A stretch of DNA of 800 nucleotides, from the NCBI RefSeq assembly GCF_003334255.1, contig NZ_QOWU01000185.1. One strand, 5' to 3'. Origin of the DNA: Escherichia coli (GTDB lineage Bacteria > Pseudomonadota > Gammaproteobacteria > Enterobacterales > Enterobacteriaceae). This document shows positions 1 through 800 of this stretch, in pieces. A program made the position numbers and the translations under genes. The notes beneath the pieces were generated by a model that saw only the letters and a program-made list of their open reading frames with translations, was not told the DNA's origin and did no database searches. Positions within the stretch are counted from its first letter, which is position 1. The number at the start of each line of letters is the position of its first letter.

Positions 1-800
1 CAGGTCTCGCCCAGCGTGGTGTTCACAAAGGTTTTCAGGCCGTTGGGATCTTTCAGTGCATCCAGCCAGTCATAGACTATCTGTACCCAGGTGGTGAACG
101 GACTGTACGCTGTCCAGATATGGAACGTGATGGAGCGCGGCGGCGGAATTTCATTATCCGCGGCGCTGAAAAACGTCAGACCGTCACGGGTCCACATCCC
201 CGTGTTTTCACAGATCCACCGCCCGTTGCTCTGGTCAAGCTCAGACTGATGGATCACGCAGCCATGATGTTCACAGAGGTAGAAAACGCTTTCGGGGCTG
301 TCCTTCTCCCATTTAAGGCCAAAAGGCGTGGATTCATCGCCAAATTTCAGATACTGCTCCTCCCCACAGTGTGGGCAGGGCACATAAAAACGCATGAAAT
401 GCGCCGACTCGTTGGCCGCTTTTTCGATCTGGCAGGTGCCTTTGATTTTAGGCGTCGAGCCGCGAATGGATTTGGGCCATACAGAGCCCTCAATACGTTT
501 ATCCCCAAGCAGGGTTGGCGAACCCTCTTTTTCGACATCCGGTTCGAACGAGGAAAGTTCGTCATAGCAGACCACGTCCACGGATTTTTCACGGTAGTTT
601 TTGGCGGCAGCGCCGCCCAGGCACCAGAAACCCACACCCGATGAAAAGCGTTTCAGCGTGAGGGTATTGTCACGATGTTTACGCCCCAGCCATGGAAAAA
701 GGTCTTTCAGACATGGCACATCCCGAATCGTCGCCTCCACGTGAGACTTCATAAAATCTTCAGCGGCAGAATCCGTGGGCTGAAAAAGCAGACTGTTTCG
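1..800 (-). CDS. terL: Phage terminase large subunit, lambda gpA-like (internal fragment, partial at both ends; roughly residues 99-365 of a ~640-aa protein)
   Basis: Reverse-complement frame starting at window position 800 is open for 266 codons plus 2 trailing bases, with no stop. The translation contains FMKSHVEATIRD, KHRDNTLTLKRF, GFWCLGG, AKNYREKSVDVVCYDEL, EGSPTLLGDKRIEGSVWPKSIRGSTPK, GTCQIE, HFMRFYVPCPHCGEEQYLKFGD, TPFGLKW, SVFYLCEH, TFHIWTAYSPFTTWVQIV and KTFVNTTLGETW, all of which match blocks of lambda gpA as I recall it, in the same order and spacing. Recognition is from memory of the lambda gpA sequence, not a database search. Confidence 0.95.

What the first reader, a model, noticed from the sequence alone, without database searches (positions are those of the whole stretch)
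453..581. Packaging ATPase catalytic motifs conserved (Walker B and GST coupling motif)
On the minus strand, positions 558-581 encode VDVVCYDE. This is the hydrophobic strand ending in the acidic pair Asp-Glu, which corresponds to lambda gpA Asp178/Glu179 (Walker B) under the gap-free alignment that places window residue 1 at lambda Arg99. Positions 453-461 encode GST within IRGSTPK, corresponding to the lambda gpA coupling motif at residues 212-214. Retention of both motifs suggests a catalytically competent packaging motor. The Walker A P-loop would sit about 15 codons upstream of the window edge, beyond position 800.
Basis: partly seen in the sequence, partly recalled or inferred. Interest (0 to 1): 0.3.

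Follow-up and report, generated by a model that had tools for sequence, protein, structure and literature searches.

The report
Lambda-type terminase ATPase motifs, ordinary prophage gene

Summary
Confirmed and ordinary. The minus strand, frame 1, is open for all 266 codons. It aligns to lambda gpA residues 99-364 with no gaps (72% identity, E 9e-150). Window 581..558 encodes VDVVCYDE, matching lambda 172-179: the Walker B strand VAGYD plus the catalytic Glu179. Window 461..453 encodes GST, matching lambda 212-214, the C or "coupling" motif.

The window is 100% identical to prophages in many complete E. coli genomes. There the gene is an intact 642-codon terminase large subunit. It sits behind an intact cosN and a small-subunit gene and ahead of the W, portal, protease, decoration and capsid genes.

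Across 99 diverse family members, E179 is invariant, D178 is 98/99, G212 is 91/99 and T214 is 91/99. dN/dS is 0.05-0.08. An AlphaFold2 model (mean pLDDT 94) puts each motif at the end of a core beta-strand. Its best structural matches are the HK97, P74-26 and T4 terminase ATPases.

Caveats are small. Glu179 is strictly the catalytic carboxylate after Walker B, and motif retention alone does not prove activity.

Side observation: the window also encodes a conserved four-cysteine, zinc-ribbon-like cluster.

The parts
1..800 (-). Internal fragment of a lambda/phage 21-type terminase large subunit gene (gpA/TerL). It covers codons 99-364, plus 2 bases of codon 365 at window positions 2..1.
   Evidence: The frame is open throughout. 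Pfam GpA_ATPase PF05876 scores E 1.6e-40. Identity to lambda gpA is 72% with no gaps. The window is 100% identical to E. coli prophage gene WP_001309424.1. dN/dS is 0.075 against phage 21 and 0.048 against PhiR12_1.
561..575 (-). Walker B strand VVCYD (residues 174-178). Asp178 is expected to coordinate Mg2+.
   Evidence: It aligns to lambda VAGYD and matches the literature table in PMC6379665. D178 is kept in 98/99 family members. The AF2 model has a beta-strand at 174-178.
558..560 (-). Catalytic glutamate, equivalent to lambda Glu179.
   Evidence: It is invariant in 99/99 family members. All changes of lambda Glu179 are lethal, and non-conservative ones abolish ATP hydrolysis (PMC6379665).
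576..581 (-).
   Evidence: These columns vary across the family: position 172 is K, V or L, and D173 is kept in 72/99.
492..518 (-). Helix 193-201 of the loop-helix-loop region between Walker B and the C motif. It includes Thr194 (window 513-515), the site of the lambda slow-motor mutation T194M.
   Evidence: The AF2 model has a helix at 193-201. T194M is cited in PMC5737356. Within this stretch L196 (95/99) and R200 (97/99) are highly conserved; G191 (95/99) lies just before it.
453..461 (-). C motif (the ATPase 'coupling' or sensor-I-like motif) Gly212-Ser213-Thr214, at the end of strand 208-213.
   Evidence: It aligns to lambda GST 212-214. Across the family G is 91/99, S is 83/99 (T in 12), T is 91/99 and P215 is 96/99. 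The AF2 model has a strand at 208-213. The lambda G212S phenotype is cited.
138..380 (-). Beta-rich insertion in the ATPase domain (residues 239-319). It contains a zinc-ribbon-like Cys cluster: C240-P-H-C243 (window 366-377) and C274-E-H-H-G-C279 (window 258-275).
   Evidence: The insertion is described for lambda TerL relative to HK97 (PMC10810279). C240 and C243 are kept in 99/99 and C274 in 98/99. The fourth Cys is at 277 (81), at 279 (12) or at both (6), and is never absent. The family profile's only PDB sequence hits are zinc ribbons: 1qyp at E 0.0023 and L44E at E 0.019.
3..116 (-). ATPase lid subdomain (residues 327-364). It includes Asp342 (window 69-71), the acidic partner proposed for the Walker A 'arginine toggle'.
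   Evidence: The lid is defined as W327-D342-T364 in PMC6379665 Table 1. D342 is invariant among the lambda/21 group and is E or D in 81/99 family members. The AF2 model has helices at 336-346 and 350-361. Pfam assigns residues 323-364 to the start of its GpA_nuclease model, which is a domain-boundary discrepancy.

Best explanation
The window is an internal part of an intact, selectively maintained terminase large subunit gene (lambda gpA / phage 21 gp2 type) in a lambdoid E. coli prophage. The flagged residues are the core of its packaging ATPase centre. The proposed mechanism is inferred by homology to lambda. A deviant Walker A loop (KSARVGYT, residues 76-83, just upstream of the window) binds the ATP phosphates. 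Asp178, at the end of the hydrophobic Walker B strand VVCYD, holds Mg2+. Glu179 activates the water molecule that attacks the gamma-phosphate. The Gly212-Ser213-Thr214 C motif, at the end of the next core strand, senses the gamma-phosphate. Together with the intervening loop-helix-loop (Thr194), it couples hydrolysis to DNA translocation. The lid subdomain (327-364, Asp342) closes over the nucleotide through the Arg79 toggle. What is shown here: identity, register, motif conservation, purifying selection, fold and genomic context. What is inferred: the enzymatic roles, taken from lambda, T4 and HK97 experiments.
Against: No activity was measured for this allele. Walker A, the nuclease domain and the cos site lie outside the 800-base window, so they are known only from identical or near-identical loci, not from the window's own unknown source. 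The Walker B strand differs from lambda at two positions (A175V, G176C). These are shared with viable phage 21, and across the family the positions are filled by hydrophobic or small residues. Residue-level superposition on a solved structure could not be obtained. hhalign against HK97 and T4 single sequences aligned only the Q-motif/Walker A stretch, at 0.4% and 6% probability. Placement of the motifs in the active site therefore rests on the model's secondary structure and on published alignments. The 'coupling' function of the C motif is only partly supported in the nearest solved homologue, where HK97 T186A has a mild phenotype.
Confidence: 0.93

Rival explanations
1. The gene sits in a cryptic or defective prophage and no longer works as a packaging motor. 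On this view the motifs are kept only because the gene was acquired recently, not because of selection.
For: The strain 7/2 prophage carries some pseudogenes upstream in the lysis and late region, including truncated DUF1737 and YdfR genes. E. coli carries many defective lambdoid prophages (general knowledge). The window alone cannot show that the gene is intact.
Against: The full-length gene is intact in the identical locus. The whole cos-Nu1-A-W-B-C-D-E-FI module is intact. dN/dS of 0.05-0.08 over dS up to 0.49 shows long-term purifying selection on this lineage. Near-identical alleles occur in deposited complete phage genomes with lab hosts.
Confidence: 0.05
2. The DE and GST matches are chance short motifs and are not the ATPase active-site residues.
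For: Two- and three-residue motifs are common in proteins. No solved structure of a gpA-family protein exists by sequence search.
Against: Exactly these columns are invariant or nearly so across 99 relatives down to 27% identity, while neighbouring columns vary. They sit at the C-terminal ends of consecutive core strands in a pLDDT-94 model whose best matches are terminase ATPases. Mutational data exist for lambda E179 and G212.
Confidence: 0.01
3. The terminase has been co-opted by a satellite, a gene-transfer-agent-like element or a host function, rather than serving a phage.
For: None specific. Terminases are sometimes hijacked or domesticated (general knowledge).
Against: The locus has the full lambda-like lysis and head gene order, with its own cos site and capsid genes. 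No satellite-like features were seen.
Confidence: 0.01

Closest known systems
Bacteriophage lambda gpA (TerL, NP_040581.1)
   Same: Identity is 72% over residues 99-364 with no gaps. The protein has the same Walker A type (KSARVGY[ST]), the same Walker B Asp plus catalytic Glu179, GST 212-214, Thr194, lid Asp342 and CPHC...C cluster. The gene order cos-Nu1-A-W-B is the same.
   Different: The Walker B strand is VVCYD here and VAGYD in lambda. Position 277 is His here and Asn in lambda. Synonymous sites are saturated (pS 0.76). The C-terminal tail differs. cosB and the small-subunit specificity region differ.
Phage 21 gp2 (terminase large subunit, UMO75417.1)
   Same: Identity is 94% in protein (250/266) and 89% in DNA across the window. 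VDVVCYDE and IRGSTPK are identical, as is the 642-aa length.
   Different: There are 16 substitutions, all outside the motifs. The cosB region upstream differs.
Escherichia phage PhiR12_1 to PhiR12_5 'terminase DNA packaging protein A'
   Same: Identity is 96% in DNA and 98.5% in protein (262/266). The locus layout and cos region are the same.
   Different: There are four substitutions (D131K, F133S, L145I, T220S), none in a motif.
HK97 TerL (PDB 6Z6D), P74-26 TerL ATPase (4ZNI) and T4 gp17 ATPase (2O0H)
   Different: Sequence identity is only 10-14%, and profile comparison is barely detectable. These proteins have a classical Walker A lysine, where the gpA family has Tyr82 and uses Lys76. They lack the residue 239-319 beta-rich, Cys-containing insertion.

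Membership tests
gpA-family terminase large subunit (Pfam PF05876 GpA_ATPase + PF20454 GpA_nuclease) | A significant match to the GpA_ATPase profile. | tested here: met
   E 1.6e-40, window protein residues 3-195, model positions 59-247 of 247.
gpA-family terminase large subunit (Pfam PF05876 GpA_ATPase + PF20454 GpA_nuclease) | Collinear homology to the founding member, lambda gpA. | tested here: met
   192/266 identities, 0 gaps, E 9e-150, residues 99-364.
gpA-family terminase large subunit (Pfam PF05876 GpA_ATPase + PF20454 GpA_nuclease) | A deviant Walker A, K76-S-A-R79-V-G-Y-[ST], with the lysine at the start of the loop. | tested here: met
   This lies outside the window. It is present as KSARVGYT 76-83 in the 100%-identical locus L003. 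K76 is 99/99 and R79 98/99 in the family.
gpA-family terminase large subunit (Pfam PF05876 GpA_ATPase + PF20454 GpA_nuclease) | A Walker B hydrophobic strand ending in Asp, followed by the catalytic Glu. | tested here: met
   VVCYD-E at window 575..558. D178 is 98/99 and E179 99/99. The model has a strand at 174-178.
gpA-family terminase large subunit (Pfam PF05876 GpA_ATPase + PF20454 GpA_nuclease) | A C motif G-[ST]-T-P at the end of the following core strand. | tested here: met
   GSTP at window 461..450. G is 91/99, S or T 95/99, T 91/99 and P 96/99. The model has a strand at 208-213.
gpA-family terminase large subunit (Pfam PF05876 GpA_ATPase + PF20454 GpA_nuclease) | A C-terminal RNase H-like endonuclease domain. 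| tested here: met
gpA-family terminase large subunit (Pfam PF05876 GpA_ATPase + PF20454 GpA_nuclease) | Genomic context: downstream of cos and the small terminase subunit gene, and upstream of the head-tail joining and portal genes. | tested here: met
   Annotation of L003. cosN GGGCGGCGACCT is conserved with lambda and phage 21.
gpA-family terminase large subunit (Pfam PF05876 GpA_ATPase + PF20454 GpA_nuclease) | DNA-stimulated ATP hydrolysis, DNA translocation and cos cleavage activity. | not testable with these tools
   This needs biochemistry or genetics. It is inferred from lambda experiments.
ASCE P-loop ATPase, viral terminase fold | The ATPase domain fold superposes on solved TerL ATPase domains. 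| tested here: met
ASCE P-loop ATPase, viral terminase fold | Residue-level superposition of D178/E179 and T214 on the Walker B and sensor-I residues of a solved structure. | tested here: inconclusive
   The tools return no residue mapping and no model coordinates. hhalign against HK97 and T4 sequences aligned only the Q-motif/Walker A region, at 0.4% and 6% probability. Strand-end positions agree with expectation.
Zinc ribbon (side observation) | Two CxxC-type knuckles on beta-hairpins that supply four ligands. | tested here: inconclusive
   The cluster is C240-x2-C243 and C274-x4-C279, where the family consensus is C274-x2-C277. The fourth Cys is never absent in 99 sequences. Zinc-ribbon PDB hits are weak (E 0.0023 and 0.019). 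Beta-strands flank both knuckles. Metal binding is not testable here.

The most novel reading that the evidence does not exclude
The window also encodes a conserved four-cysteine, zinc-ribbon-like module inside the beta-rich insertion (residues 239-319) of the ATPase domain. Its fourth ligand has moved from position 277 to 279 in the lambda/phage 21 clade. I found no description of it in the searchable literature. If it is a real metal site, it could be an uncharacterised structural or DNA- or partner-binding element specific to gpA-type cos terminases. The flagged Walker B and C motifs themselves leave no room for a novel reading.
Probability: 0.3. Interest if true: 0.3.

Novelty: already known. 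Interest (0 to 1): 0.07.

Why it matters
It matters little beyond correct annotation. The sequence is a common E. coli prophage terminase gene, and its ATPase motifs have been defined and mutated in phage lambda for two decades. The practical value is a validated reading of the window. It covers gpA residues 99-364: Walker B with the catalytic Glu, the loop-helix-loop, the C motif, the Cys-rich insertion and the lid. There is also reasonable evidence that the prophage's packaging motor is intact. The one point of wider interest is the conserved four-Cys cluster in gpA-type terminases. It could be tested for metal binding in the well-developed lambda system.

Tried and rejected
(1) Sequence search of the fragment against PDB chains gave no hit. 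A family profile hit only zinc-ribbon proteins over residues 233-281, not terminases. No gpA-family structure can therefore be reached by sequence.

(2) NCBIfam gave no family for the fragment.

(3) A single-sequence AlphaFold2 run on residues 1-366 was unusable (pLDDT 35). It was replaced by an alignment-based full-length model.

(4) hhalign of the family profile against HK97 TerL and T4 gp17 single sequences was meant to give a residue-level mapping of Walker B and the C motif. Only the Q-motif/Walker A stretch aligned, at 0.4% and 6% probability. That register does agree with the published alignment (R79 to T4 R162), but this is not a test of the flagged motifs.

(5) Tsay et al. 2010 (PMC2911301), the primary paper for G212S and T194M, is not held, so I relied on a citing paper.

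(6) The plus-strand 174-aa ORF at 120..644 was considered as an alternative gene and rejected. It is antisense to a frame under strong purifying selection, and it is interrupted by a stop in lambda.

(7) The first word-indexed homologue search returned only close relatives of at least 78% identity. The exhaustive representative search was needed to get diversity.

Full report
**Observation**

The minus strand of the window, read from base 800, is open for all 266 codons. The other five frames have 1-18 stops. By the position ruler, bases 581..558 are GTG GAC GTG GTC TGC TAT GAC GAA = VDVVCYDE. Bases 461..453 are GGC TCG ACG = GST, within IRGSTPK. The coordinates and translations in the finding are exact.

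**Register with lambda**

BLASTP against lambda gpA, translated from NC_001416 711-2636, gives one gap-free alignment:
- Window residue 1 is lambda Arg99, and the last complete codon is Thr364.
- There are 192/266 identities, with E 9e-150.
- VDVVCYDE aligns to lambda VDVAGYDE 172-179, which contains Asp178 and Glu179.
- GST aligns to lambda 212-214.

**Source and context**

The window is 100% identical to chromosomal prophage copies in many complete E. coli genomes. Of the matching records, 323 are at least 99% identical. Relatives of at least 80% identity occur in 1924 of 5426 genomes.

In strain 7/2 (NZ_CP023820) the gene is an intact 642-codon 'phage terminase large subunit family protein', WP_001309424.1. 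It lies after the lysis genes and a terminase small-subunit gene. It is followed by the head-tail joining, portal, S49 protease, decoration, major capsid and FI genes. About 190 bp upstream of the small-subunit gene lies a cosN sequence (GGGCGGCGACCT plus a conserved right flank). It is identical to that of lambda and phage 21, while the cosB region differs.

The closest named phages are:
- The PhiR12 series: 96% DNA identity and 98.5% protein identity over the window.
- Phage 21 gp2: 89% DNA identity and 94% protein identity.

None of their substitutions touch the motifs.

**Walker A**

In the identical locus the loop KSARVGYT occupies residues 76-83. This is the deviant gpA-type Walker A listed for lambda as KSA-R79-VGYS (PMC6379665).

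**Is it more than chance?**

Short motifs alone would not be convincing. The fragment contains just one hhhhDE and one G[ST]T. Three lines of evidence make them meaningful.

1. *Family conservation.* An exhaustive search of 1.84 billion representatives found 5774 relatives. I aligned 96 full-length representatives with lambda, phage 21 and the query, spanning 27-92% identity to the query. Only six columns are invariant: Q57, K76, E179, C240, C243 and W336. Near-invariant columns include R79 (98/99), D178 (98/99), G212 (91/99), T214 (91/99) and P215 (96/99). S213 is S or T in 95/99. The four positions before D178 vary, filled mostly by hydrophobic or small residues.

2. *Selection.* dN/dS is 0.075 against phage 21 (dS 0.49) and 0.048 against PhiR12_1. 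Against lambda the synonymous sites are saturated (pS 0.76), yet the motif codons differ only synonymously.

3. *Structure.* A full-length AlphaFold2 model built from the 99-sequence alignment has mean pLDDT 94.2. It shows strand 71-76, a loop and helix 82-97, which together form Walker A. Strand 174-178 ends at Asp178, with Glu179 next. Helix 193-201 follows, and strand 208-213 runs into Thr214. Its best matches in the PDB are all large terminases:
   - Foldseek: probability 1.0 for Sf6, HK97, T4, D6E and P74-26.

   This reproduces the published result that the lambda TerL model is closest to HK97 6Z6D (PMC10810279).

**Mechanism**

The mechanism is inferred from homologues. Ortiz et al. showed that lambda Glu179 is the catalytic carboxylate. 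All changes are lethal, non-conservative ones abolish ATP hydrolysis and translocation, and E179D slows the chemical step. They list the Walker B as VAGYD followed by Glu179. They also describe Arg79 toggling between Glu179 and an acidic lid residue; their table defines the lid as W327-D342-T364 (PMC6379665).

The lid and Asp342 also fall within this window, at bases 3-116. The lambda mutations T194M and G212S lie in the region linking Walker B and the C motif and reduce packaging velocity 3-10 fold (PMC5737356, citing Tsay 2010). Thr194 and Gly212 are both retained here.

In HK97, the Walker B residues D153/E154 and the C-motif/sensor-I residue T186 occupy the equivalent strand ends. E154A abolishes activity, while the T186 mutant has only mild effects (PMC9410871). 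The 'coupling' label should therefore be treated as a working model.

**Verdict on the interpretation**

- Glu179 is the ASCE catalytic glutamate immediately after the classical Walker B, rather than part of it.
- Competence is inferred rather than shown. The inference rests on an intact gene, an intact cos and head module, purifying selection and near-identical alleles in deposited phage genomes.

Residue-level superposition on a solved structure could not be done. The tools give no coordinates or residue maps, and profile-to-sequence alignments against HK97 and T4 reached only the Q-motif/Walker A stretch, at 0.4% and 6% probability.

**Comparison and novelty**

This is a member of the gpA family (Pfam PF05876 and PF20454, PHROG 15). 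It is 100% identical to an already annotated RefSeq protein. Nothing about the flagged motifs is new, so I rate it already known and of low interest.

**Side observations**

- *Cys cluster.* The window encodes C240-P-H-C243 and C274-E-H-H-G-C279 inside the beta-rich insertion (residues 239-319) that distinguishes lambda TerL from HK97 TerL. Across the family the pattern is CxxC...CxxC. The 12 sequences lacking Cys277 include lambda, phage 21 and this one, and all 12 have Cys279 instead. No sequence lacks both. The family profile's only PDB sequence hits are zinc ribbons: 1qyp at E 0.0023 and ribosomal L44E at E 0.019. I found no mention of zinc or this cluster for gpA in the searchable literature. 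That library is incomplete, so this is not a claim of novelty.
- *Intein in distant relatives.* Two distant relatives carry a LAGLIDADG intein inserted within Walker A.
- *Other minor items* are listed separately under noticed in passing.

Noticed in passing
window 258-377 (minus strand); residues C240, C243, C274, C279: There is a conserved zinc-ribbon-like four-Cys cluster in the ATPase-domain insertion. The family consensus is CxxC...CxxC. In the lambda/phage 21/this clade the fourth Cys sits at 279 instead of 277. Across the alignment 81 sequences have C277 only, 12 have C279 only, 6 have both and none lacks both. The family profile's only PDB sequence hits are zinc ribbons (1qyp, E 0.0023). 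I found no mention of this in the searchable literature.
   Followed up: partly
window 3-128 (minus strand); residues 323-364: There is a domain-boundary discrepancy. Pfam assigns residues 323-364 to the start of its GpA_nuclease model. The lambda literature and AF2 models treat 327-364 as the ATPase lid subdomain and end the ATPase domain near residue 366.
   Followed up: partly
window 120-644 (plus strand): A 174-aa ATG-started ORF lies antisense to the terminase frame, and plus frame 3 has only one stop in 800 bases. The ORF stays open in the homologous regions of phage 21 and PhiR12_1 but has a stop in lambda. It is most likely a shadow ORF of the strongly constrained opposite frame.
   Followed up: partly
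proteins P0144 and P0268 (distant gpA-family relatives, 1005 and 1015 aa); not in the window: An insertion of about 360 aa splits the Walker A loop: KSARVGY | ALALGT...IPTHN | TKM. Pfam finds LAGLIDADG and Hom_end homing-endonuclease domains in the insert and a split GpA_ATPase domain. This is an intein that starts with Ala, sitting in the P-loop.
   Followed up: partly
proteins P0001-P0004 (E. coli, 730-742 aa): These are variants of this terminase with an internal duplication starting at residue 255 or 282 and ending at 400 or 390. Their bit scores are higher than the self-match. Whether this is an assembly artefact or a real tandem duplication is undetermined.
   Followed up: no
proteins P0123-P0133 (representative library): These are lambda-like, about 64-73% identical to the query. 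The homologous part stops at residue 349-539 and is followed by long unrelated tails, for total lengths of 791-1153 aa. They may be chimeric contigs or lambda cloning-vector fragments. This was not examined.
   Followed up: no
L003 5026-5240 (E. coli 7/2 prophage, upstream of the small terminase gene): cosN and its right flank (GGGCGGCGACCTCGCGGGTTTTCGCTATTTATGAAAATTTTCCGG) are identical to lambda. The cosB region matches neither lambda nor phage 21 but does match PhiR12_1. This suggests a distinct small-subunit/cosB specificity group.
   Followed up: partly
window 567-572 (minus strand); residues V175, C176: The Walker B strand carries Val-Cys where lambda has Ala-Gly. At position 176 most family members have a bulky hydrophobic residue (I, L, F, Y or M). 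Lambda's Gly and this clade's Cys are both minority states.
   Followed up: no
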